From positions 480,001-544,000 of the forward strand of contig CAWCKJ010000003.1 in NCBI GenBank assembly GCA_963796105.1: DNA of 64,000 nt. Reading direction: 5' to 3'. This document shows, one piece after another, positions 8,266 to 44,172 of this stretch. Origin of the DNA: a candidate division FCPU426 bacterium (GTDB lineage Bacteria > Oederibacteriota > Muellerivitia > Muellerivitales > Muellerivitaceae). The notes beneath the pieces were generated by a model, which ran no database searches, was not told the DNA's origin, and saw nothing but the letters and a program-made list of their open reading frames with translations. The position numbers and the translations under genes are program-made. Numbering within the stretch: the stretch's first letter is position 1; each line of letters opens with the position of its first letter.

Positions 8266-8502
8266 TTAAATCTTGTCCAACAGCTCCAAATATTTTTCCG
8301 GGGTTATTTCAACTTCCCGTAGAATTTCCCGAATCAATGGCCTTGCTATATCTTGTCCCCCGTGATTGGGAACCGTTGTTGTCTTCCCATCAGAAATCCG
8401 CCGGAAAAATACATGGCTTCCCTTTTGCCTTACAGGCTCGAAACCCAAATTCCTAAGCAGTTTATCCATTACACGGAAAGGAATGACGGGCAGTTTGCTC
8501 AA
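8266..8502 (-). CDS. hicA: HicA family toxin
   Basis: GF...RQKGSHV.F...TTVPNH motif. Confidence 0.9.
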   Translation of the reverse strand: MSKLPVIPFRVMDKLLRNLGFEPVRQKGSHVFFRRISDGKTTTVPNHGGQDIARPLIREILREVEITPEKYLELLDKI

Positions 8503-8717
8503 ACCCCCACCTCAACCTGTTGCAGGCCAACGAATTGGGGCAATTCGGCAAGCAGGTCCTTGTTTTCTTCCACGCATAGTTCCAAGACTTCTTTTAGGTT
8601 TTTTTGAAGCTCATCCAGGGTTTTTCCCTGAGTGTGCGCTCCTGGAATTCCCGGAACGATACCCACATACTGTTTTGTTTCCGAATCAAACTCAACGTAA
8701 GCTGTTAATGTCTTCAT
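8499..8717 (-). CDS. hicB: HicB family antitoxin
   Basis: YVGIVPGIPGAHTQGKTLDEL..NLKEVLEL; overlaps hicA start. Confidence 0.9.
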   Translation of the reverse strand: MKTLTAYVEFDSETKQYVGIVPGIPGAHTQGKTLDELQKNLKEVLELCVEENKDLLAELPQFVGLQQVEVGV

Positions 8718-8802
8718 AAATCCTCCCTTTTCCTCAAATAGAATAACCTCTTGGGAAAAAATATAAAAGGGGTGCAAATCACCAGGTTTAGAACATTACT
8801 CA

Positions 8803-9213
8803 TCATAACTGAAGCAGTTCCACCATCCTTCTGGGCGTGACGATCTCGACACCCTCAAAACGCCCCAAGGGTAGAAGGTGTTCTTTGTCCCCCGTAAGCA
8901 GGTATGAGGCGCGGCCGGCTACCGCGCATTCCAAGATATGGTTGTCAGCCTCGCGAGTTTTACTGGCATGGATCGGTCGGGTTGGTCCCACCAGCAGGCA
9001 GTGCAGGATCATATATTTAACGCGTTCTTCCACCATCGGGCCCGGCAGTTCGAGTTTGCCCGATAATGCTTCCTCTACTTCCCTCAAAATGAACTTGGAT
9101 GTGATTAATTCCACGGATTCCCGCTTCCTGGCCCGCGCCACCCTCTCGCAAAAACCCCCGGGCGTTAAAAAAGCCGAGATCCATACGTTTGAATCCAGCG
9201 CCAAGCGGATCAA
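8803..9213 (-). CDS. PIN-domain toxin
   Basis: LDSNVWISA, DNHILECAVAG, LLTGD motifs. Confidence 0.88.
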   Translation of the reverse strand: MIRLALDSNVWISAFLTPGGFCERVARARKRESVELITSKFILREVEEALSGKLELPGPMVEERVKYMILHCLLVGPTRPIHASKTREADNHILECAVAGRASYLLTGDKEHLLPLGRFEGVEIVTPRRMVELLQL

Positions 9214-9214
9214 A

Positions 9215-9469
9215 TCAGGCTTTACCCTTGGGGGATTTGCGGATCTCCCGCACGAGATTTTCCACATCCTGCTCCGTCCGAATGCCCTTGGCTTGGGCGT
9301 AAGGCGCGGCTTCCTCCTGCATACTGTGCCAGCGGTGATCGTCCAAATATTGGAGCACGGCTTCCTTTATGAGCTCACTTCGGGACTGGTGTTTCTCCTT
9401 GGCGATTTTCTCCGCCTCCTTCAGGATTTCCGCCGGAAGGGAAACGGAAGTAATGATTCTATTGGACAT
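9215..9469 (-). CDS. Ribbon-helix-helix (CopG) antitoxin
   Basis: SVSLP.EI...SRSELIKEAV..YL; directly upstream of PIN gene. Confidence 0.85.
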   Translation of the reverse strand: MSNRIITSVSLPAEILKEAEKIAKEKHQSRSELIKEAVLQYLDDHRWHSMQEEAAPYAQAKGIRTEQDVENLVREIRKSPKGKA

Positions 9470-9632: not shown

Positions 9633-9849
9633 TGCGGGCAGGACACCCGAAACCTGCGGGCAGGACACCCGAAACCTGCTCCTAGGACCCCGGAACTTGC
9701 TCCTAGGTACGGCCGGTTCTGCTACTAGGAACACTAAACCTGCTACTAGGCACCCCGGATCTGCTACTAGGAACGCCAAAACCTGCTACTAGGTACGATC
9801 GGTTCTGCTACTAGGAACACTGAAACCTGCTACTAGGAACCATGGAACC
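9633..9849. repeat. Array A: ten 21-22-bp units with conserved TGCTACTAGG-type core and variable 11-12-nt tail
   Basis: Units start at 9633, 9655, 9677, 9698, 9720, 9741, 9762, 9784, 9806, 9828. Confidence 0.9.
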
Positions 9850-10127
9850 CGGGAATCCCGAAACTCCTGGAACGGGTTCGATAAACTCACCGCTAGCTGG
9901 CCTGGAACCGTCCATGTCTCCGGAAACACCGACCCATGTCGCCGGGAACTTCATAATCCAACGAAAGCGCGCATTCCCTCCAATTAAATCCGCGCACTAA
10001 ATCCAATCCAAAGCGCGCATTTAGAAGGTGTTCGACGCGGGGTTATTCTGGTTTTAAATTCCTTTGACTGATTTATTAATTTCCGATGCTACACGGCCAA
10101 GAACCAATTCTGAAAGAAGAAAATGGT

Positions 10128-10877
10128 TTAGCCGTCAGGGTTGGCCTGGATTTTACGATTTTTCCGCATGGATTCTCCTTTCAAGACGATGGAATGGGAG
10201 TTGTGGATTAGCCGGTCAAGAATGGCGTCAGCTAAAGTCGGGTCTCCGATGATTTCGTGCCAATGGCTTGGCGGGACTTGGGAAGTTACCAAGGTGGATC
10301 GCCGGTCATATCGGTCCTCCAATATCTCAAACAAGTCCTTGCGTTGCTCATCGGTGAGAACCGCCGTTCCCCAATCGTCCAGGATCAAAAGGTCATAGTG
10401 GGAGAAGGAGACGAGGATTTTCCCATATCGTCCATCCGCCTTGGCCAGGGCCAAGTCTTGGAAAAGTTTGGGAACCCTCAAGTAAAGAACGTGGAACCCT
10501 TCACGGCAGCCCTGGTGCCCCAGGGCACAGGCTAGGTAGCTCTTTCCACAGCCCGTGGGCCCTGTAATCAGGCAGTTGTCATGGGATCGAAGCCAAGCGC
10601 AGGATGCCAGTGACAGGATTTTCGCCTTGTCTAGACCGCGGGGCTGTTGGTAATCCACGTCCTCCATCGTTGCCGGAAGACGTAGTTTCGCCCTTTGCAG
10701 CCTGGCGGTGAGGCGGCTGTTGGATCTCATCATCTCCTCCCGGTCCAACAACAAAGCGAACCTTTCCTCGAAACTCAAGGAACTGCATTCAGGATTTTCC
10801 ATCTGCTCTTGCAGGGCCTTGAGCATGCCGGGCAATCTCAGTTGATAAAGCTTGTCCAGGGTAGGGTGTTGAAGCAT
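10128..10877 (-). CDS. istB: IS21 helper ATPase IstB
   Basis: GPTGCGKS Walker A, LILDDWG, LADAILDRLIH. Confidence 0.95.
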   Translation of the reverse strand: MLQHPTLDKLYQLRLPGMLKALQEQMENPECSSLSFEERFALLLDREEMMRSNSRLTARLQRAKLRLPATMEDVDYQQPRGLDKAKILSLASCAWLRSHDNCLITGPTGCGKSYLACALGHQGCREGFHVLYLRVPKLFQDLALAKADGRYGKILVSFSHYDLLILDDWGTAVLTDEQRKDLFEILEDRYDRRSTLVTSQVPPSHWHEIIGDPTLADAILDRLIHNSHSIVLKGESMRKNRKIQANPDG

Positions 10878-10898
10878 ACGTCCTCCTTGTGATTGATT

Positions 10899-12428
10899 TC
10901 AAAGCTGGTAATAGGCCGATCCCCGTACGTTGTCGTGCAGGGGAAGGGGTAAACACACCACTTGGCTTTCCAAGGGACGCTGATCCAGGCCGGTCTTGAG
11001 GATGGACTGGATGCTCCTTCGGGAAACAGCGTTGGAAGCCAAAGCGCGCGAGCAGGCGGCGTTGAGCCTCGCCGCGCCGAACTGCTTGGAAAGTTGGATA
11101 AGTCCCAGACAGGCCCGGTAACCCTGCTGGGGATGAACTTTGGAAGCCAATATCTGTTCCACGCATTTCTCGACTGAATCCCCCAGCGAATGAGCCCAGC
11201 GCAAAAGTCTTTCGGGGCTCCAATCCCCGTAGTCCTTGTGATTCTTGGGCATATGGTCCTTGCAGGTAGTGTGATAGCCTTTCACGAAGGACCGTAAATG
11301 GCTGGCCACCCGCTTGTGTTGGTGGAAACATTCCACGATGGAGGATGTGGTTCGAACCCAAATACTTTGGCCGACCAATTGGTAGGGAATGCTGTAATAG
11401 TGTCGGTCGATTTCGACGTGGTAGTCGATATGCACCCGGGCTTGTTTCCATTGGGCGAAGTCGTAGGGAACCTCAGGAAGAGGCTTCAAAAGGGGCTTTT
11501 CCAGCTCCTCAAAGAGGGACTTTCGGGAACCGGGAATCTTCTGGAAGGGTTTGGCATTGAACTTCACCAAAAGCTCGGCGATGGCCTCGTTGAGGTCGGC
11601 GAGGGAGAAAAATTGCCGGTGGCGAAGAACCGCTAGGATTTGACGCTCGATATCCTGAACGCCTTTTTCTACCTTGGCCTTGTCCCTTGGTTTTCGGACC
11701 CGGGCCGGAAGGATGGCAGTACCGTAATGGTTGGCGAGTTCCTGGTAGGTGGCATTGGGTTGGGGCTCATAGCGGCAAGGACGGGTAATGCCGCTTTTGA
11801 GATTGTCGGGAACTATCAACTCGTGGATACCACCGAAGAATCTGAAAGCCCTTTGGTGGGAGGCGATCCAATCTGGAAGTCCCTGGGTCCAGGTGGCCTC
11901 GGCATAGGCGTAATTACTGGCGCAGGACACGGCCACGAAGATTTGGGCTTCACGAATTTCCCCGGTCAAGCGATCCACAACGGGCATGGTTAGGCCGGCG
12001 TAATCGACCATTAACTTTTCACCGGCCTTGTGGTCCAACCGCATGGAAACATCCAAGGTTTGGGTCCAGTCCCGGTAGAGCCCGAAGAAACGGCTTCGCA
12101 GGTATCCATCGGGATGGATATTCTTGTACTCTTGCCACAAGAGCTCCATGGTAACGCCCTTGCGTTTAAGTTCCTGGTGGATTTGATTCCAGGTGGGCAG
12201 GGGTCTGGATTTATTTCTGGGTTCGATGGGACCCGAGGGGAATAGTCGTGTTTCCAACGTGGCATCGTCCAAATCGGCTGGAAGCGGCCAAACCAACCCG
12301 GCTTTCTGCGCCCTGATGATATATTCCCGAACAGTTGTTTCGCCTAGTCCACAGCCTCGGGCAATATTTCGAAGACTCAGCCCCTTCTCGTACTTCAACC
12401 GCAATACTTCCCTGATTTGACGCATGGA
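10899..12428 (-). pseudogene. istA: IS21 transposase IstA of element A, separated from its first codons (15206-15223) by element B
   Basis: VDYAG, DNLKSG, KAKVE DDE motifs; removing 12429-15205 restores MPRERSSMRQIREVLRL with GGAGG RBS. Confidence 0.9.
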
Positions 12429-12686
12429 TGTCACTGGCCAGCCACTTTAACCCCCCTGGCCGCCTACTTTGCCCCCCCTCTTTTGGGCACTTCGAGGGGT
12501 GCCTGTTTCGGGGACTTCGACCCCTGCCTTGCGGGGCCTCTTTTTTAGATTAATTTAGACCCATCAAACTCCTTTCACAAGATGCGTTTTGCTTCCCCAA
12601 CATTGGATGATACGAAGTCCCGCGCAAATCCCGTAACCAATAGGCGCAAGATTGCACGAATAAGACAGCATCGAACGATGGGTTTC

Positions 12687-13466
12687 TCATAGTTTTGCCT
12701 CTTTTTCCCTGCTGTGTTCTTTTTTCATTTCTTCGCGCATGGAACGGGTCCGAAAGGAAGGGCCCTGAATGACGACGGCAGTGGCATGGTGGACCAGGCG
12801 GTCCATGGCAGCCGAGGCTAGGAGGGCGTCGCCGAAAAGCTCCGGCCACTCCCGCAGACTGCGGTTGGTGGTAAAAATCAAGGAGCCCTTTTCATAACGC
12901 TCACAGATGATGTCGTAAAAATCCTCGGCGACCTTGGTGTCGAAGGGCTTGAGACCCCAGTCGTCCAGGATCAAGAGGTCGGGTTTCAGGAAGGATGCGA
13001 ATCGGTTTTCCCAGGTACCGTCCCCGCGCGAGGCCGCTAATCGTTGGGCCGCATGCGAGGTCTTGATAAAGAGTACCTCATAACCCTTGCGGCAGACTTC
13101 ATGGGCCAAAGCGCAGGCCAAATGGGTTTTGCCCACACCTGAGGGACCGATGAAAAATAGGTTCTCTTTTCGCTCCACGAAAGAACAAGTACCCAAATCC
13201 AGGATTTGTTGCCGGTTGATGGCCGGGTTGAAGGCGAAATCGAACCCCGTTAGAGTCATATGGGTTGAGAAGCCCGCCTTTTTCAGCCTTCTTTGGAGTT
13301 GGCCCACTTGGCGGCGCTCCAGCTCATCCAACAGCAACTGGCCCAGGAAATCCATATAACCGATCTGGGATTCAATGGCCTGCTGGTTTCGGATTTCCAG
13401 CGTCTCCAACATACCTGCGAGTTTTAACCTTCTCAGGTGCGGCTCCAACTGATGTTTATTTTCCAT
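12687..13466 (-). CDS. istB: IS21 helper ATPase IstB
   Basis: GPSGVGKTH, LILDDWG, AAMDRLVHH. Confidence 0.95.
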   Translation of the reverse strand: MENKHQLEPHLRRLKLAGMLETLEIRNQQAIESQIGYMDFLGQLLLDELERRQVGQLQRRLKKAGFSTHMTLTGFDFAFNPAINRQQILDLGTCSFVERKENLFFIGPSGVGKTHLACALAHEVCRKGYEVLFIKTSHAAQRLAASRGDGTWENRFASFLKPDLLILDDWGLKPFDTKVAEDFYDIICERYEKGSLIFTTNRSLREWPELFGDALLASAAMDRLVHHATAVVIQGPSFRTRSMREEMKKEHSREKEAKL

Positions 13467-13479
13467 ATATGCTTCCTCC

Positions 13480-15036
13480 TCAATTTTTATCCAGAGCCAA
13501 GGCACGGAGGAAATCCTCCGCGGGCCGGGCGAAATCGAAAGACGACTGGGGTTTGAGTGAAGGATCCGACGGCGGGTCCAACGGGTTTTGATCGAGGTTC
13601 TTTTGAAGGATGTTTTTGATGGATTGGTACGTGTAGTTTCCGAAATGGAGGGCCCTTAGACAGGCTGCCTCCAGACGGGAAGGCAGGTACTTTTCCCTCA
13701 AGCGCAGAATGCCCTGGGCTTTGCGCAGATGGTCCAGGGGGTGGGAGTGTTCCAGCAGGAGTTGGATTAATTGATGGGTATTAGGTCCAATGGCCTGGGC
13801 CTGTTTGAGGCACCATTGTGGGGTTCGTTCCAAGAAGACCGCTTTTTCAGGGGGATAGTGGCCCGGGTTGGTGCGCCAGGTTCCCTTGCGTGTGGCCTTG
13901 GCGTGGGAAGCCACGCATTCGTGTTTGAGAAATATATCAACGGTGGTGTCGGTTAATTGGGCCAGTAGTTTTTGGCCCCGAAGACGGTAGGGAGCCGAGT
14001 AATAGGAACCTTCCACGACTACGTGGCAATCGGGGTGCAGAGTGGCTTCTTTGAAGAAAGTTGGATGGTAAGCCGCGGTAGGCAGGGGCAAAAGGGCCTT
14101 CTGTTCCACGCTCTGGAAGACGGCCAAGGGTTGAAGCCGGGTGGTGCCATGATCCCGTAAACCTGCCTTGTTCATCACCCAATCGCGGAGTTGATGGTTG
14201 GCATCGGTGCGGCCCTGGAAGGAACGACCCTTGAAGAAGGAATTACGGACATAGGGCACGCCGCGTTCAACTTTACCCTTGTGGCGTGGAGTGGCGACGC
14301 GGCAAGGGGAGATGATGAAGCCGTAATGGTTGGCGCATTCCACGTAGGTACGGTTGGCCAAGGGATCATAGAGGGCCGCCTTGACGATGGCGCTTTTCAG
14401 GTTATCGATTACGATTTTTTTAGGGACTGAATTGAAGAACTCGAAAGCCCGGCGGTGGCAGGCGATCCAGGTTCTCACGTCCTGTGCGAATACAATCTCG
14501 GCGTACATATGCCGGGAATGGGAAAGGGTCATCACGAAAACCCAGGCCTTGGCTTGCTTGCCACGCGTCTCGTCCCACAAGCGGCCCAAAAGCCCGAAAT
14601 CCACTTGGGCCTCCTCGCCGGGCGCAACCTCCAGCCTCACGTAGGCGGGTTTCTCATTGCGAAAAGGCTCCGTATACCTCTTCAGGGTCGAGTAACTCCC
14701 CTTCCACCCGTGCCGCTCTTGAAGCATCTCCTGGATGCGAATCAAGGTGAAATCTTCCTTCAACCATTCTTGGATGATTCCCTTGAGGGCCTCCAAGGCA
14801 TGAGCGGGAACGGGCGTGGATTTTTCGCCGTCTTCCCAAGCCTTCGCCAAATCCTTTTCCAGGGGAAGTTCCCCTTGGAGAAAGCCATGTTCTTTCGCCC
14901 AACGCACGTATTGCTTGACCGTGTGCTTATTGCATCCCAGGGCCCGGGCAGTGGGTTTGAACCCGCCCAAGGCCTGGTAAGTCCTCAAAATCTCACGAAT
15001 AGTCGCCATGTCGCTCTGCCTCCCTTGTCGGGTCAT
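13480..15036 (-). CDS. istA: IS21 transposase IstA
   Basis: PGEEAQVDFG, DNLKSA, KGKVERGV. Confidence 0.95.
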   Translation of the reverse strand: MTRQGRQSDMATIREILRTYQALGGFKPTARALGCNKHTVKQYVRWAKEHGFLQGELPLEKDLAKAWEDGEKSTPVPAHALEALKGIIQEWLKEDFTLIRIQEMLQERHGWKGSYSTLKRYTEPFRNEKPAYVRLEVAPGEEAQVDFGLLGRLWDETRGKQAKAWVFVMTLSHSRHMYAEIVFAQDVRTWIACHRRAFEFFNSVPKKIVIDNLKSAIVKAALYDPLANRTYVECANHYGFIISPCRVATPRHKGKVERGVPYVRNSFFKGRSFQGRTDANHQLRDWVMNKAGLRDHGTTRLQPLAVFQSVEQKALLPLPTAAYHPTFFKEATLHPDCHVVVEGSYYSAPYRLRGQKLLAQLTDTTVDIFLKHECVASHAKATRKGTWRTNPGHYPPEKAVFLERTPQWCLKQAQAIGPNTHQLIQLLLEHSHPLDHLRKAQGILRLREKYLPSRLEAACLRALHFGNYTYQSIKNILQKNLDQNPLDPPSDPSLKPQSSFDFARPAEDFLRALALDKN

Positions 15037-15427
15037 GCCGTTCTCCTCACATGAAGTGAAAAAAGAAAGGAATGACGGTTAGAGAGGCCCTTGGCAAGGG
15101 GGTCAAAGTCGGTGGCCAGACAGGGGGTCAAAGTGACTGGCCAGAGGTGGGGTCAAAGTGCTTGGCCAGCTAGGGGGTTAAAGCTCGCGGCCAATGACAC
15201 ATGGATGAACGCTCCCTTGGCATTCCGACCTCCTTGGTTTTGGAACAACCAAAAAAGGCCAAGAATAACCCTGTTGAAGGTTATCCCGCATCGTTCGCCC
15301 TCCCTTCAAACCCTAGAAATAGCTTTCTAGGGGTGCACGCTTTCGATTGGATTAGGTGCGCGCTTTGGATTGGATTTAGTGCGCGGATTCGATTGGATTG
15401 GGTGCGCGCTTTCAATTGGAATATGCA

Positions 15428-16050
15428 CAATACTGGGTTGAGCCCTCTCATACTGGGTTGTACTGGGTTGAGCCCCCCATACTGGGTTGTACTGGGTTGC
15501 CAGCCTCCAATACTGGGTTGGGCCCTCTCATACTGGGTTGTACTGGGTTGCGAGCCTCCAATACTGGGTTGGGCCCTCTCATACTGGGTTGTACTGGGTT
15601 GCGAGCCTCCAATACTGGGTTGAGCCCTCTCATACTGGGTTGTACTGGGTTGCCAGCCTCCAATACTGGGTTGCGAGCCTCCAATACTGGGTTGGGCCCT
15701 CTCATACTGGGTTGTACTGGGTTGCGAGCCTCCAATACTGGGTTGAGCCCTCACATACTGGGTTGTACTGGGTTGCCAGCCTCCAATACTGGGTTGAGCC
15801 CTCTCATACTGGGTTGTACTGGGTTGCCAGCCTCCAATACTGGGTTGAGCCCTCTCATACTGGGTTGTACTGGGTTGCCAGCCTCCAATACTGGGTTGAG
15901 CCCTCTCATACTGGGTTGTACTGGGTTGAGAACCTCCAATACTGGGTTGGGCCCTCTCATACTGGGTTGTACTGGGTTGAGCCCTCTCATACTGGGTTGT
16001 ACTGGGTTGAGAACCTCCAATACTGGGTTGCTGCCCCAAATACCGGGTTG
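15428..16050. repeat. Array B: 36 perfect and 1 variant copy of TACTGGGTTG, built from 30- and 21-bp modules (51-bp higher-order unit)
   Basis: Direct reading: CAATACTGGGTTG-AGCCCTCT-CATACTGGGTTG-TACTGGGTTG-CCAGCCTC repeated with variants. Confidence 0.97.
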
Positions 16051-16164
16051 TCCGCTTTCAGAATTCAAGCGTGGAATCTGGTAGATATTTTGGAGGAGTA
16101 TTCGTTGTTTGAATACGGCGGCAGTCGCCGTATTCAAACTGCCGGATTTAAATACTATGCGTGT

Positions 16165-16416
16165 ATGTTTGAAAAAGAGGTCGCTGAACTTACGGAAAAA
16201 ACCTTGGGAGATCTATCGCGTCGGATCTCGGAAATGAGGCATGCAAATAATTGGACCCAAGGGAAAGTCGCTGAAATGATTCGCGTTGACGTAAGAACAT
16301 ATCAAAGATGGGAATATGGGGAGATTGCCCATAATGCCATTCCTCATTTATGCAGGCTCGCGATAGTCTTCAAATGTTCTGTGCATGATTTCTTTGATGA
16401 TGCAAGACAACCGTAA
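16165..16416 (+). CDS. XRE-family helix-turn-helix regulator
   Basis: R...NWTQGKVAEMIRVDVRTYQRWEYG HTH; ORF track extends it in-frame upstream through array B. Confidence 0.85.
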   Translation: MFEKEVAELTEKTLGDLSRRISEMRHANNWTQGKVAEMIRVDVRTYQRWEYGEIAHNAIPHLCRLAIVFKCSVHDFFDDARQP

Positions 16417-16585
16417 TTTGGCCGTGGCTGCCCTTATGGTTTTCCTCGAAAGAATTCTATGATGAACCAAAACCTTAATAATAATTTGTGGTCGTCCCAG
16501 GGAAAATAAAAACGGGATTTGATCAGTCAAGCCGAGTGGTTCTTTTGGTCGGCTTTACTATATCTGGCTGAACTTCAGAGGGGAT

Positions 16586-16770
16586 TTACCCACCAATCAA
16601 CCACACCTGCCGTGAGCACACACGGCGAACGGCAAGATTTGGTTGTACCAACTGCCATAAGCAGCTGGTACAAGTTGATTGGTGACGGTTGGTAATGGCT
16701 TGCAAATGGCCTTACGAATAGCTTTCCATAAACCATTTGTGGTGTCGGGCGAATTACCCGACCAATTTAA
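16586..16770. ncRNA. Candidate structured RNA/ssDNA element (multi-stem junction)
   Basis: 11-bp stem 16591-16601/16674-16684 enclosing two hairpins, followed by two more hairpins; no ORF. Confidence 0.35.
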
Positions 16771-16814
16771 AACAATTGGTATCGCGGGATAAAGCAGGAA
16801 TATTTCTCAAGTAC

Positions 16815-17006
16815 CTAAAGTGATGACTGGTCACTGCACCAAGCTAGGGGCTTGGTGCCTGACCCCTGATTTCCTGTATTGGAATTGAATCCGGTTTGGG
16901 AATCATGGCCGAATATCTTCACCGCGGCGATGACCGCGACCGCTATTAAAGCAACTATCAAGAGGTATTCCGCCATCCCTTGGCCTTTTTGATTTAGCTT
17001 TTTCAT
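16815..17006 (-). CDS. Flp/type IVb pilin-like protein (orphan, C-terminus possibly truncated)
   Basis: KGQGMAEYLLIVALIAVAVIAAV prepilin cleavage/Flp motif; GGAGG RBS. Confidence 0.8.
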   Translation of the reverse strand: MKKLNQKGQGMAEYLLIVALIAVAVIAAVKIFGHDSQTGFNSNTGNQGSGTKPLAWCSDQSSL

Positions 17007-17276
17007 GAATAAAACCTCCCAGTCTTTGTGCACTCTAAAACTATTTAGAAGTGTTCCCTAAACCATATTCTTGGTATCTGGCCTATTTTAATATTACCTG
17101 GTTTTTCTTTAAATTGTTGTTTCCACAAAATCCCTCAAAAATTCTGCCCAAAACGGCAAAGCTGGGCTGAAAATTAAAAGAAGTTGGCGGAAGATGAGAA
17201 GTTAGCGCAAAAGCTGATAAAGTGATGAATGATCACTGCCACACGCTGCGGAGCGTGTGGCCTGACCCCTATGTTT

Positions 17277-17434
17277 CATCATGGAGTCAACGTGAAATAT
17301 CTGCCTGGATACTTGAGCGAATATACTTATCGGTTCAATCGTCGCCATGACCCAGATTCCTTATTTCACCGGGCCTTAACCGCTTGCGCTTTGGCAAAAC
17401 CCATTACTGCGCAAGCGTTGTTCGGATAGGCATG
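17277..17434 (+). pseudogene. IS1595 transposase C-terminal remnant with element end
   Basis: HHGV..KYL..YLSEY.YRFNRRHDPDSLFHRALTACALAKPITA, nearly identical to C-terminus of 38798-39706. Confidence 0.85.
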
Positions 17435-18004
17435 GAAAATTGTATTCAAAAGAACGGGACAAACTCGAGAAAGAATTCAAGGGGACATTCGCAAAGAAGA
17501 CCGAGAAGTTTTTTGTCAGTACGCTCTGCCGGTCGTGCTATGAAGATTCGGTTTTCAGTGGTACGCTAAGTTCTTTGAAAGATGATGTTGACATTGAATC
17601 TGCATTTGAACTTATCCAAATCAGGCCGAATTCGGCGAAACGTTGAAAAAATCCAATAATTACAGGCTCCTGCACATGGCTGTCGCAAAAAGGATGGTGT
17701 GCAACGATTTAAGGCCCCACGCCTATAAGAATATCTAAAGAAGGAATCTGGATTTCCAATCAAGACCTCTTCAAACACTTGAAGAAGCTGTAAAAGGGAA
17801 TTACCCCGCAGGATACGACTTCGAGAACCGGAAATTTGATTCCCGCCGATAAGAAAACCGGCGTTTCAAAGCCATATAAAAGGCTATCTGACATTCAGTG
17901 TGTCCCCGCCGGTTGAAAAGTGTGACGGTGGGCGGTCCAAAAGTGTGACACCCCCCGCCTTCCACGAGCCTTACGGTTCATGGTCGTTGGTTTGTCTTTA
18001 GTCT

Positions 18005-33314: not shown

Positions 33315-36014
33315 TTATTTTCCATTTAAGTATTGGACTGTCATTTTCAGTTTCTTTCTCGGCGCGTTCTCGTCCCCGCCGGGCAGGATAAATAAAACGT
33401 GCTTCCCTGGAGTAAGGTTTTTCAATTCCTTCTCCAATTCGCCGGTTTCCCGCTGGGAGCCGTCGGCTTTATCGACGTTCCAGATCACGTCCCCCAGTTT
33501 TAATCCGGTTTTATAAACGGGACTGCCGGTCCATAACACAGCCGCCACGCTCTTATCTACGAATAGCACCCCTTGGTGAAGATAAGGCAGTCCCGATACC
33601 GGGATGGCCTTGCCCCCCAGGACCCCTTTGGCCCAATATTCCATAGCTGAAACCAGGTTCCCCAATTCCCTCTTTGACCGGCATTCGAACGTGATGGCCT
33701 TTTTCAAATGAGGGATGACCAACCCGCATTGGTAAATCGTCTGGCTTTGATATTTACCGGAATAGACCAGGAGTTTATCGCTATGGATGGTTTTCAATTC
33801 CGTCCAATCAAACCCCACTCTCCACCCCTCATCTCCCGGAAGTTTGAAATGGAGAATAAGGCCGGTCCGGGATGGAAGGGCGGAGGTGACCTTGACCTTG
33901 TCGTTCCCAAACCACATGGAATATTTTTCACCGTCCTGGAGGGCTGCTAAATAAGAGCCGGCGGTATCCTCATCCAGTCGTGAATCGAGCCCCGGATTGA
34001 AGCTTTGGATCACGCAATATTCGGGAACAGGGTATATCTCATTCACTAAGCAGTTATAGTCCACATCCTCGGCACTCCAGGGCTTTGCGGGCTTGCTTGA
34101 GGAAGCGGAATGAACGGATTCGACTCCCTTCGTTCGCTCACCGCCATGTAATGGGGAATGGACAATTTCTTGATTTGCATTGGACTTATCCGAATGGCTT
34201 ATCCCAGTCTCTTTTTTAACATTTCCTATTTGCGTATTTTTGTTTCCGTTGGCAACTCCTAATTCCTCACTCCTAATTTCTAATTGTTTTTTGAGTTCTG
34301 GTTTTTCCAATCCGCATATTGTTCTCCAATTCGAGAAACTGGGCGCCTGGGCCTTCGGCAGGTATCCCTCCCATAGGCTTCGGGTAAACCAGGCCATGAC
34401 CAACAGAAAACCTATGATGGAAAGCTTCCCAATTCCCGGATTGAGGACCTCCTTTACCACTAGAAGCGAAATAACCGCGAGACCCAGGGCCAGTTTCGGG
34501 CTGTGGGGAATTTGGGATACGACATACAGCGGGAATTGGATAAAAGCGATATTCCAAATGACCCCGGAGACGGCATCGAATCTATCGCCCCAGGACGGGA
34601 CAAAATAACCGATTACCAGCTCGACGATTCCGAAGAATATGCCATAAGCCAATGGAACCATCAGAAGAAAGAGCCCCCAGTGCGCCAGCAGTCTGGAAAG
34701 GCTATTCCCTCCCCGTGAATGGCCGGAATGGGACCCGCTATGGGACTGGGGCGCTAGTTTATTGGCCAGGTAAATACTGGCGCGCAGGGGGAATTTGATG
34801 AATTTGAAAAGGTATTTGAAAATGGCCCTCGCCGCAAGCCAAGCATGATGCCCCAGGAATTTCAGATAGGCTTCCAACGATTTGCCTGCCCTGAGTCCGT
34901 CGAATGGGCTGGGATTCAGGGGATGCGGGGGATGGGCCTGCGCCGAGCTTGGTTGAGGGGCTGGGATGGCTTCGTTAGGAACATCAGGACTATTGGGAGC
35001 ATTGACCTTATCTTGATCGGATATTGATTTTGGCCGTAAACTAGCCAATCCCAGGGCAAGCTTTTCCCAAAGGGTCAGGGCTTTGCCGCCGGACGTTGCC
35101 TCCTCCAACCGCCCGTTCAGGTTTTTCCGGGCTATTTCACTTTTTTCATTAACTCCCAATTCCTCACTTCTACCTTCTAACTCCTGAGGGTCCTTTTGAA
35201 TGTTGCCCGCAGGCTTGGATCTTGGTTTTCGGGCCTTCTTTTCCGCCTCAAACTGGTCCAAATCCTTGCCTGAGACAGCGTGCGCCACAAATTCCTGAGT
35301 TTGTGGGCCGTTTAATTGCTTTTCTAATAGGATTGGTAAGATTTTATCCGCTAATAATCGGGCATCATCAAGTTTCCGATTATCTAAAAGCCGGATCAAT
35401 CGACAGGCGGCCTTCTCGGTCAAACACCATATTTTCACATTATTTGAATCATTATCATTTTCAACTTCGGAAAAGTTAGACAGTCTAACTCCTTGCCGCG
35501 CTGTTTGTAATATCAACTGCCTAGTCGCAGGGCTTAAGAGTTCCATCAAGCTAAATGCGCAACTAATCCTGTATGAAGACCACCCAGTCTTAGCCGCCAA
35601 TTCCTTCTGTTTTAAGCCAGTTAAGTTCCTAAGGTTTTCCAGGGCCATGAACTCCCCTAACCAATAGGGTTTATTGTCCCGGTTGGAGGTGAGGGCCCGG
35701 AACATGGCGTCTTCCAGGCTGATATCCAGGATCTCGGCCTCTATATGGGTCCGCCCCAAGCGTTTAAAGGCCTCTGCCCGCCTTTGGCCGGAAACAATGG
35801 CCCAAGGCGCCTGGCGGTTCCCTTTCCAGACCGTGATCCGGTCAAGGGTCCCCCCGTTTTTCAGGTAGTCCACCAGCATTTGCATCTCATCCTCTTCCAG
35901 GAAGGGCCGGGGATTCCATGACGGGACAGCCAGATCCACGATGGGAATCATGACGATCTCCGGGGGTTTGATTTGGGATTGGGCCTGGTCGGCGGGTTTG
36001 GGAACATTTTCCAT
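33315..36014 (-). CDS. ParB N-terminal domain + HTH + transmembrane segments + C-terminal PDZ-like domain
   Basis: NPR, IVSGQRRAEA, QKELAAKTGWS; hydrophobic helices in mid-protein; GSPVYKTGLKLGDVIWNVD. Confidence 0.8.
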   Translation of the reverse strand: MENVPKPADQAQSQIKPPEIVMIPIVDLAVPSWNPRPFLEEDEMQMLVDYLKNGGTLDRITVWKGNRQAPWAIVSGQRRAEAFKRLGRTHIEAEILDISLEDAMFRALTSNRDNKPYWLGEFMALENLRNLTGLKQKELAAKTGWSSYRISCAFSLMELLSPATRQLILQTARQGVRLSNFSEVENDNDSNNVKIWCLTEKAACRLIRLLDNRKLDDARLLADKILPILLEKQLNGPQTQEFVAHAVSGKDLDQFEAEKKARKPRSKPAGNIQKDPQELEGRSEELGVNEKSEIARKNLNGRLEEATSGGKALTLWEKLALGLASLRPKSISDQDKVNAPNSPDVPNEAIPAPQPSSAQAHPPHPLNPSPFDGLRAGKSLEAYLKFLGHHAWLAARAIFKYLFKFIKFPLRASIYLANKLAPQSHSGSHSGHSRGGNSLSRLLAHWGLFLLMVPLAYGIFFGIVELVIGYFVPSWGDRFDAVSGVIWNIAFIQFPLYVVSQIPHSPKLALGLAVISLLVVKEVLNPGIGKLSIIGFLLVMAWFTRSLWEGYLPKAQAPSFSNWRTICGLEKPELKKQLEIRSEELGVANGNKNTQIGNVKKETGISHSDKSNANQEIVHSPLHGGERTKGVESVHSASSSKPAKPWSAEDVDYNCLVNEIYPVPEYCVIQSFNPGLDSRLDEDTAGSYLAALQDGEKYSMWFGNDKVKVTSALPSRTGLILHFKLPGDEGWRVGFDWTELKTIHSDKLLVYSGKYQSQTIYQCGLVIPHLKKAITFECRSKRELGNLVSAMEYWAKGVLGGKAIPVSGLPYLHQGVLFVDKSVAAVLWTGSPVYKTGLKLGDVIWNVDKADGSQRETGELEKELKNLTPGKHVLFILPGGDENAPRKKLKMTVQYLNGK

Positions 36015-36213
36015 AGACAACCTCCTTATAGTTAAAAAAGCCATTATTCGCGGCCAATAACTGATTTTCTTACAATACTTTCAGTGTGTTATTATTTTCA
36101 ATAAAATTCAAAACGGATTTAGGAAAATCTTTTCCCGCCTGGAAATATTGGGTAATTAAAACAGACGGGGTTATAGAAGGCGAAAAGACGGACTGCCACC
36201 CGGGTTTAAGATA

Positions 36214-44001: not shown

Positions 44002-44172
44002 AACAGGTCCATAAATGGTCCTCTTATCACATTCAGGTTTATTTAAACCTATCAAAAAGCGGAACCGCCCAACAGGTCTTTAAAGTCCGCTTATCACATT
44101 TAGCGTTTATTTAAATCTATCAAAAATCGGAACCACTCAACAGGACCTGGGAAGTCCCCTATTTCATTTAAC
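44002..44172. repeat. Degenerate 68-69-bp tandem repeat (~2.5 copies)
   Basis: AACAGG...GTCC.CTTATCACATT...TTTATTTAAA.CTATCAAAAA.CGGAACC units at 44002, 44071, 44139. Confidence 0.75.

What the first reader, a model, noticed from the sequence alone, without database searches (positions are those of the whole stretch)
15428..16050. 623-bp modular array of 37 TACTGGGTTG boxes, helically phased and in-frame with an XRE regulator
Seen: the boxes are spaced only 10, 20 or 21 bp apart, about 1 or 2 helical turns. They form 30-bp and 21-bp modules that mostly alternate as a 51-bp unit and are shuffled in places, with a small set of variant linkers (AGCCCTCTCA, GGCCCTCTCA, CCAGCCTCCAA, CGAGCCTCCAA, AGAACCTCCAA). 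Both modules are multiples of 3, long ORFs cross the array on both strands, and one (15487-16416) runs straight into the HTH gene. Inference: either a phased protein-binding array (iteron, centromere or operator sponge) or a length-variable N-terminal extension of the regulator.
Basis: partly seen in the sequence, partly recalled or inferred. Interest (0 to 1): 0.7.

Follow-up and report, generated by a model that had tools for sequence, protein, structure and literature searches.

The report
Dispersed helically spaced bacterial satellite array
The repeat block is real but is one of dozens of non-coding repeat arrays scattered through this bacterium and its sister species; they keep a short core motif and near-whole-turn spacing, attract certain jumping genes, and likely serve as docking rows for an unidentified DNA-binding protein rather than as part of the neighbouring regulator gene.

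Summary
Observation confirmed with small corrections: 36 exact boxes plus one mismatched; one spacing is 19 bp; the array phases at 10.2 bp, not 10.5. It is not a one-off. 188 of 192 genomic boxes sit in 8 loci, part of about 46 mosaic intergenic arrays built from about nine box types with periods of 21-22, 42-44 and 51-53 bp. They were found in 2 of 41 genomes searched (this genus). Between the two species the core ACTGGGTT and the 21-bp spacing persist while linkers diverge. The array is the right half of a locus split by nested IS21 elements; all 5 copies of that IS21 lie in arrays, against 1 of 55 IS1595 copies. All 8 TACTGGGTTG loci face the same way relative to replication. The XRE link looks incidental: the gene has its own ribosome site and start after the array, 7 homologues lack an extension, and XRE genes are not enriched near arrays. 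Closest known: Subirana-Messeguer constant-length (20-23 and 52 nt) bacterial tandem repeats. Best reading: protein-binding scaffold, binder unidentified. The scan noted this family before at two other loci of this genome.

The parts
15428..16050 (+). TACTGGGTTG block of a composite non-coding array: 37 boxes, 30-bp and 21-bp modules, mostly a 51-bp unit
9633..9949 (+). Left part of the same array locus: 22-bp units with TGCGGGCAGG / TGCTACTAGG boxes, then GGAAC-type units, in the same orientation as the TACTGGGTTG block
9950..15427 (-). IS21-family element A (istA 10899-12425, istB 10128-10877; 23-bp subterminal repeats at 9955-10019 and 15332-15420) inserted in the array locus; flanks GGGAAC and CAATAC give no target duplication, unlike its 4 other copies
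12429..15199 (-). IS21-family element B (istA 13480-15036, istB 12687-13505) nested in element A just upstream of the istA start, 6-bp duplication CATGGA
16092..16098 (+). Shine-Dalgarno-like GGAGGAG, 6 nt before an in-frame TTG: likely ribosome site of the XRE gene, downstream of the array
   Evidence: sequence
16105..16416 (+). Small XRE (HTH_3) gene, 103 aa from TTG 16105 or 83 aa from ATG 16165; neighbour, probably not part of the array
16579..16867 (+). About 290-bp repeated non-coding element ending in a TIRYT-type terminal repeat (TAAAGTGATG...CCTGACCCC); 6 copies in the genome, each within about 1.1 kb of an array
   Evidence: no Rfam match
17168..17276 (+). Remnant 3' end and terminal inverted repeat of a TIRYT (Y1 HUH transposase) element

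Best explanation
The block is one locus of a genus-wide family of dispersed, non-coding, mosaic tandem-repeat arrays that likely act as rows of binding sites for an unidentified host DNA-binding protein, and its frame continuity with the XRE gene is likely incidental. Shown: about 46 loci, about nine box types, periods near whole helical turns, a conserved ACTGGGTT core with free linkers, one orientation relative to replication, and repeated insertion of particular IS21 elements. Inferred: modules multiply locally by slippage or unequal exchange, blocks move between loci by recombination among arrays, selection keeps core and spacing because a protein polymerises along them, and the periodic DNA is favoured by the IstB target-bending complex. 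At this locus IS21-A inserted into the array and a later deletion or recombination at its end likely removed the target duplication and put the TACTGGGTTG block flush against it.
For: Family: 188 of 192 exact boxes lie in 11 clusters at 8 loci; 73 vocabulary clusters (23.6 kb) merge to 46 loci, reversed-vocabulary control 0; 68 of 73 clusters lie outside called genes. Period: dominant period 21-22 in 9, 42-44 (42 or 43) in 27, 51-53 in 21 and 84-86 in 4 of the 72 clusters with a recurrence; the spectrum peaks at 10.6 bp. Constraint: in G001, 41 of 45 units are 21-22 bp with 36 distinct linkers; core positions ACTGGGTT are 0.93-1.0 conserved and linker positions 0.38-0.82. Range: 2 of 41 and 2 of 31 genomes, both this genus. 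Polarity: box strand is the lagging strand in 8 of 8 TACTGGGTTG loci (p=0.008) and 30 of 40 oriented loci (p=0.002; dnaA at C4:859 kb); antiparallel to co-directional flanking genes in 22 of 27 (p=0.0015) and 10 of 12 in G001 (p=0.04). Position: 5 of 5 two-sided syntenic intervals hold an array in both species, with a different dominant box; one G001 array has flanks mapping beside two G000 arrays 473 kb apart. Insertions: IS21-A 5 of 5, with four different target duplications; IS21-B 6 of 11; IS1595-type 1 of 55; 1655-bp family 0 of 20; IS4-type 0 of 9. IstB bends target DNA with dimer spacing that follows DNA periodicity (PMC11208146, passages).
Against: No binding protein was identified: neighbours are heterogeneous (90 of 123 candidate flanking ORFs scanned), no histone-fold gene in G000 or G001. 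Box conservation is partly built in, because units were picked by likeness to the box. This array drifts out of 10.5-bp phase. Position conservation is partial: only 5 of 17 one-sided flank mappings had a G000 array within 1.5 kb, and 3 of 22 G001 loci had no mappable flank. The GGAAC family shows no clear polarity (10 vs 7). Two other IS21 families avoid arrays (0 of 6, 0 of 3). Loci of one box family are not independent, so the p-values overstate.
Confidence: 0.55

Rival explanations
1. Function-free satellite. The arrays grow by slippage and spread by recombination or by single-strand HUH (TIRYT) activity; period and polarity come from the copying mechanism, not from a binding protein.
For: Mosaic content and rearrangement breakpoints in arrays. 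Several arrays start directly at a TIRYT terminal repeat (3 of 7 full copies). [quoted passage not shown]
Against: Linker length is fixed while linker sequence is free in G001, which plain homogenisation does not predict. TIRYT relatives occur in 23 of 41 genomes but the boxes in 2 of 41. Most of the 46 loci have no TIRYT, and TIRYT ends fall mid-unit, as insertions would. No reverse transcriptase found in G000.
Confidence: 0.2
2. The arrays work as RNA: read-through transcripts carry the C-rich strand (CAACCCAGTA) as unstructured protein-sponge or Rho-loading tracts.
For: Antiparallel bias means the sense strand of flanking genes usually reads the C-rich complement (22 of 27). 52-nt repeats of B. 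coagulans are reported as transcribed (PMC8161180, Discussion).
Against: No unusual structure in the 51-bp unit on either strand (z -0.29 and -1.15); no Rfam family. Periods matching the DNA helix are not expected for an unstructured RNA. The data cannot separate transcription from replication polarity.
Confidence: 0.1
3. A local operator or decoy array for the adjacent XRE protein.
For: The array ends 42 bp before the XRE ribosome site. A second array at C2:368444 also lies 357 bp from an XRE gene.
Against: 2 of 49 HTH_3 genes within 700 bp, as background predicts (p=0.47). The other 7 TACTGGGTTG loci have no HTH_3 gene within 2.5 kb. The C2 array has another box and the opposite orientation. 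The boxes are direct repeats, not palindromes.
Confidence: 0.07
4. A length-variable N-terminal extension of the XRE protein (ORF 15487-16416).
For: Both modules are multiples of 3 and the frame is open into the HTH.
Against: No ribosome site at 15487, a good one at 16092-16105. The same box is read in two frames with no synonymous change, and a 19-bp unit shifts the frame. Sister arrays use 53-bp units; 8 of 11 clusters have a stop-free frame. 7 homologues have open frames of 80-144 aa.
Confidence: 0.04
5. Assembly artefact.
For: No available run bridges the array, so its length is unchecked.
Against: Non-periodic order of variant linkers; the same family in an independently assembled sister species; sister arrays carry clean IS target duplications.
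Confidence: 0.03

Closest known systems
Constant-length non-coding bacterial tandem repeats of Subirana and Messeguer (20-23 nt and 52 +/- 1 nt classes; PMC8161180, parts 1-3 of 5 read)
   Same: Non-coding, dispersed, several families per genome, short characteristic motifs, lengths 21-22 and 51-53, lineage-specific sequence, partial conservation of position between relatives, function unknown; the authors propose protein polymerisation on the nucleoid.
   Different: Here the 51-53-bp unit is visibly built from 10-bp boxes in 30+21 or 30+23 modules, a 42-44-bp class dominates, different box families are stacked in one locus, orientation is polar, and IS21 elements target them. The paper does not contain 'transposase' or 'insertion' and says the 52-nt class is found only in Firmicutes. 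The 2020 J Bacteriol paper was not held.
Plasmid iterons and parC/parS centromeres (recalled)
   Same: Direct repeats of about 21-22 bp with a conserved core on locally one helix face.
   Different: About 46 chromosomal loci, no Rep or Par gene attached, not clustered at dnaA or parB, linkers and module order shuffled.
REP/BIME elements and TIRtrons with TIRYT (TnpA-Y1 subclass 2.1; PMC3733652 and PMC6006769, passages)
   Same: Dispersed intergenic mosaics that attract particular IS families (recalled for REPs). The genome has Y1_Tnp + Bac_DnaA_C genes with GGGGTCAG terminal repeats, some abutting arrays.
   Different: Units are direct repeats with no significant hairpin; TIRYT elements look like passengers, not the source.
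IS21 subterminal repeats
   Same: About 23-bp repeats next to an IS21 end.
   Different: The real subterminal repeats are at 15332-15420, inside the element; the array lies outside the end at 15427 and differs between IS copies.

Membership tests
Subirana-Messeguer constant-length tandem repeats | Non-coding, intergenic | tested here: met
   68 of 73 clusters outside called genes; units of 22, 43, 52, 53 bp are not multiples of 3
Subirana-Messeguer constant-length tandem repeats | Repeat length 20-23 or 51-53 nt with variable sequence | tested here: met
   51 bp here; 21-22 in 9 and 51-53 in 21 of 72 clusters, plus a 42-43 class in 27
Subirana-Messeguer constant-length tandem repeats | Several families per genome sharing short characteristic motifs | tested here: met
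   about nine box types across 46 loci
Subirana-Messeguer constant-length tandem repeats | Sequence specific to a species or close relatives | tested here: met
   2 of 41 and 2 of 31 genomes, same genus; many relatives are fragmented assemblies
Subirana-Messeguer constant-length tandem repeats | 52-nt class restricted to Firmicutes | not testable with these tools
Subirana-Messeguer constant-length tandem repeats | Transcribed (reported for B. coagulans) | not testable with these tools
   no RNA holder listed
Plasmid iterons | Adjacent Rep initiator gene; one or few sites per replicon | tested here: not met
   no Rep family among 31 window proteins; 46 loci
parS/parC centromere | Linked to parAB or clustered near the origin | tested here: not met
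   loci spread over 8 contigs; dnaA C4:859 kb, parB C4:1580 kb
CRISPR array | Constant repeat separated by unique spacers | tested here: not met
   linkers are 8-13 bp and recur; separate CRISPR-like arrays with 61- and 71-72-bp periods lie on C16 and C2
REP/BIME | Palindromic stem-loop unit | tested here: not met
   z -0.29 to -1.35 for 51- and 102-bp units, both strands
TIRtron (TIRYT) terminal repeat | GGGGWSAS inverted repeat flanking a Y1 transposase | tested here: not met
   such ends are separate sequences (window 16858, 17261); the array has none
IS21 subterminal repeats | Inside the element ends and identical among copies | tested here: not met
   homology among 5 copies stops at 15427
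Coding tandem repeat (VNTR in a gene) | Translated in frame, extension seen in homologues, synonymous variation | tested here: not met
   translation itself not testable
Protein-bound DNA scaffold | A protein binds with core and spacing dependence | not testable with these tools
   needs pull-down or EMSA

The most novel reading that the evidence does not exclude
A replication-polarised chromosome scaffold: one genus has built about 50 helically spaced docking arrays whose sites are old but whose box sequences are exchangeable between loci and species. They organise the nucleoid through a dedicated protein, serve as rearrangement breakpoints, and are read by some IS21 IstB complexes as preferred targets, which would give the unexplained 21/52-nt bacterial repeats both a structural role and a direct assay.
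Probability: 0.25. Interest if true: 0.7.

Novelty: new variant of a known kind. Interest (0 to 1): 0.42.

Why it matters
Bacterial tandem repeats of constant 21 and 52 nt length are described but unexplained. This family adds testable properties: a defined 8-bp core kept across species, modules that sum to whole helical turns, strand polarity, old sites with replaced contents, and strong family-specific IS21 targeting. If a binder or an IstB preference is shown, it would explain the length constraint and supply a natural IS21 target. As a local XRE feature, as first proposed, it matters little.

Tried and rejected
Sequencing runs: no RNA holder listed. Run X1 has contigs matching IS pieces and 165 bp of the XRE gene, none over the array; X2 and X3 gave only short weak pieces: uninformative. 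Protein search with the XRE found no candidate among 46-149-aa proteins. Exact 51-bp-type pattern in metagenome contigs: 0. A looser three-box pattern gave 11 genome and 60 metagenome loci; none carried TGCGGGCAGG-, ATGCCGGTAG- or ATGTGGGC-type boxes, a few carried GGAAC-like words, and the 11 I read were unrelated arrays, so they are treated as look-alikes. Histone-fold binder: 0 in G000 and G001. Reverse-transcriptase origin: no RVT_1 in G000. Palindromic-operator reading of the box: left context does not match. Promoter/terminator scan at chance level. Rfam: two weak snoRNA hits, E about 0.4, outside the array. IS21-A relative in G001: not found with this query, so targeting could not be replicated there. 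The window's left flank in G001 continues into other genes. Replication versus transcription polarity could not be separated. The DNA upstream of the 7 XRE homologue loci was not inspected directly; that they lack this box rests on genome-wide counts. Literature: 7 searches found no description of these boxes or of IS21 targeting such arrays; subscription papers and supplements were not seen.

Full report
Observation. The array is at the stated place. There are 36 exact TACTGGGTTG boxes and one mismatched copy at 16041, all on the + strand; 39 window matches at up to 1 mismatch against 3.2 expected. Spacings are 10 (x12), 20 (x12), 21 (x11) and 19 (x1). The module string is a.d.Cg.Gg.Ga.CGg.Gt.Ca.Ca.Ca.Ng.a.N. 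ORF 15487-16416 is open and ends in an HTH_3 domain. Phasing in this array is at 10.2 bp (vector strength 0.95; 0.08 at 10.5), so neighbours share a helix face but the whole row drifts.

Local anatomy. The array starts at the base after the end of an IS21 element (9950-15427) that itself holds a second IS21 (12429-15199, duplication CATGGA). On the other side of the element lies a further array, 9633-9949, with 22-bp TGCGGGCAGG/TGCTACTAGG units and GGAAC units in the same orientation. The four other copies of IS21-A have target duplications (TTGTAC, GTTGT, GCAAC, CTCTGGA); this one has GGGAAC and CAATAC, with no reciprocal partner among the five. I infer a later deletion or recombination at the element's end.

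A genome-wide family. The box occurs 192 times in G000; 188 lie in 11 clusters at 8 loci. These are blocks within longer mosaics that also use TGCGGGCAGG, GGAAC, ATGCCGGTAG, ATGTGGGCGG, CACCAGGTTATCC, CCGGGAACAG and other boxes. A motif vocabulary that I chose from these loci finds 73 clusters (23.6 kb), none with the reversed vocabulary, merging to 46 loci; 68 of 73 are outside genes called by a simple hexamer model. Dominant periods are 21-22, 42-43, 51-53 and 84-86 bp, and the recurrence spectrum peaks at 10.6 bp. Clusters of one family are not independent. Box doublets or triplets were found in 2 of 41 relatives-set genomes and 2 of 31 family genomes, G000 and its congener G001; many others are fragmented, so this is 'not found', not 'absent'.

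Constraint. In G001, 41 of 45 units are 21-22 bp, with 36 distinct linkers; the core ACTGGGTT is 0.93-1.0 conserved per position, linkers 0.38-0.82. Units were picked by likeness to the box, so the stronger point is fixed linker length with free sequence. Of 22 G001 loci mapped to G000, 1 had no cluster, 3 had no mappable flank, 5 mapped on both sides; all 5 intervals hold an array in G000 with a different dominant box (four by vocabulary, one a 21-bp array seen); the chance per interval is 3-12%. Against this, only 5 of 17 one-sided mappings had a G000 array within 1.5 kb. One G001 array (L160) has flanks that land beside two G000 arrays 473 kb apart, which fits recombination between arrays.

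Polarity. Box families are mostly co-oriented within a locus. The box strand is antiparallel to co-directional flanking genes in 22 of 27 loci (p=0.0015) and in 10 of 12 in G001 (p=0.04). With replichores set by eye from gene strand and codon skew (dnaA at C4:859 kb), it is the lagging strand in 30 of 40 oriented loci and 8 of 8 TACTGGGTTG loci, but only 10 of 17 for the GGAAC family. Six of 46 loci had no defined orientation and were left out. Moving the C4 boundary from 720 to 860 kb swaps two loci and leaves the totals unchanged. Transcription and replication could not be separated.

Insertion targets. IS21-A lies in arrays in 5 of 5 copies, IS21-B in 6 of 11, a 1304-bp element in 3 of 9, full TIRYT elements in 3 of 7; two IS1595-type families in 1 of 55, a 1655-bp family in 0 of 20, an IS4-type family in 0 of 9, and two other IS21 families in 0 of 6 and 0 of 3. 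Arrays are 2-6% of non-coding DNA, so 5 of 5 has p of 1e-6 or less. The contrast argues for targeting rather than safe-haven retention. IstB bends target DNA with dimer spacing that follows DNA periodicity (PMC11208146, passages); that it prefers these arrays for their shape is my inference.

The XRE link. A GGAGGAG at 16092-16098 precedes an in-frame TTG at 16105, 42-55 bp after the last box; the TTG at 15487 has no such site. Seven homologues have open frames of 80-144 aa against 314 here; five of their genomes have no box doublet, and the G001 and G000 homologues are on contigs without one. The box is read in two frames without a synonymous change and a 19-bp unit shifts the frame. Three sister loci use a 53-bp unit, and 8 of 11 clusters have a stop-free frame. 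Two of 49 HTH_3 genes lie within 700 bp of an array, as background predicts. Flanking genes show no common partner (90 of 123 candidates scanned), apart from ORF6N genes, 3 of 7 within 500 bp (p=0.001, not corrected for the several families tried).

Other readings. The unit has no unusual RNA fold and no Rfam match. No reverse transcriptase or histone-fold gene was found. TIRYT genes (Y1_Tnp + Bac_DnaA_C; PMC3733652 and PMC6006769, passages) abut some arrays but occur in 23 of 41 genomes. No read set bridges the array.

Comparison. The closest description is Subirana and Messeguer's non-coding bacterial repeats of 20-23 and 52 +/- 1 nt, with short characteristic motifs, lineage-specific sequence and a proposed nucleoid-protein role (PMC8161180, parts 1-3 of 5; also PMC6749651, passages). 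Four testable features are met. New relative to what I read are the stacked box families, the 42-43-bp class, polarity, replaced contents at old sites and IS21 targeting; the 2020 companion paper and supplements were not seen. Seven searches found no description of these boxes. Earlier scan notes described this family at two other loci of this genome; I had reached the family reading before that look-up.

Verdict. Real, non-coding, one locus of a genus-level satellite family; probably a protein-docking scaffold (0.55), binder unknown; XRE connection probably incidental. New variant of a known kind; interest 0.42.

Noticed in passing
window 16579-16867; also C3:734636, C3:745163, C4:1265756, C12:177319, C2:367683: About 290-bp conserved non-coding element ending in a TIRYT-type terminal repeat; all 6 copies lie within about 1.1 kb of an array; no Rfam match. 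A partial relative follows an ORF6N gene at C3:536310.
   Followed up: partly
G000 C4:429000, C12:11987, C12:176778: Three of 7 ORF6N-domain genes (70-79% alike) end 326-476 bp from an array, always with the array downstream and antiparallel; a candidate binder or shared passenger.
   Followed up: partly
window 16815-17006 (-): Flp/Fap pilin-like ORF whose 3' part runs into a TIRYT terminal repeat; a 96% similar copy of 16874-17276 lies at C4:1323747.
   Followed up: no
window 17277-17440: About 160-bp end of a multi-copy IS1595-type element (25 full copies), cut off at a TIRYT terminal repeat.
   Followed up: no
window 8266-9469 (-): Two toxin-antitoxin pairs (RHH + PIN_3; HicB + HicA) directly left of the array locus.
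   Followed up: no
window 12429-15199: IS21-B inserted between the ribosome site and the start codon of IS21-A istA, probably silencing that copy.
   Followed up: partly
L160 (G001:C33) versus G000 C4:723733 and C4:1196470: Rearrangement breakpoint between the two species falls in repeat arrays on both sides.
   Followed up: partly
window 33315-36044 (-): 909-aa ORF with an N-terminal ParB_N domain (E 2.6e-5, below the curated cut-off) and nothing else recognised.
   Followed up: no
window 44002-44170: 68-bp tandem repeat, about 2.3 copies, unrelated to the box family.
   Followed up: no
L039, L046, L062, L080, L094, L098: Other genomes and metagenome contigs carry ACTGGGTT-containing arrays with 10-, 21-, 22- or 23-bp spacing but none of this family's other main boxes; possible convergent or distantly related arrays.
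   Followed up: partly
G000 C12:89599-90415: A nearly perfect 22-bp repeat, 37 copies at 99% identity, of the CCGCCATCCGG type: a very recent expansion.
   Followed up: no
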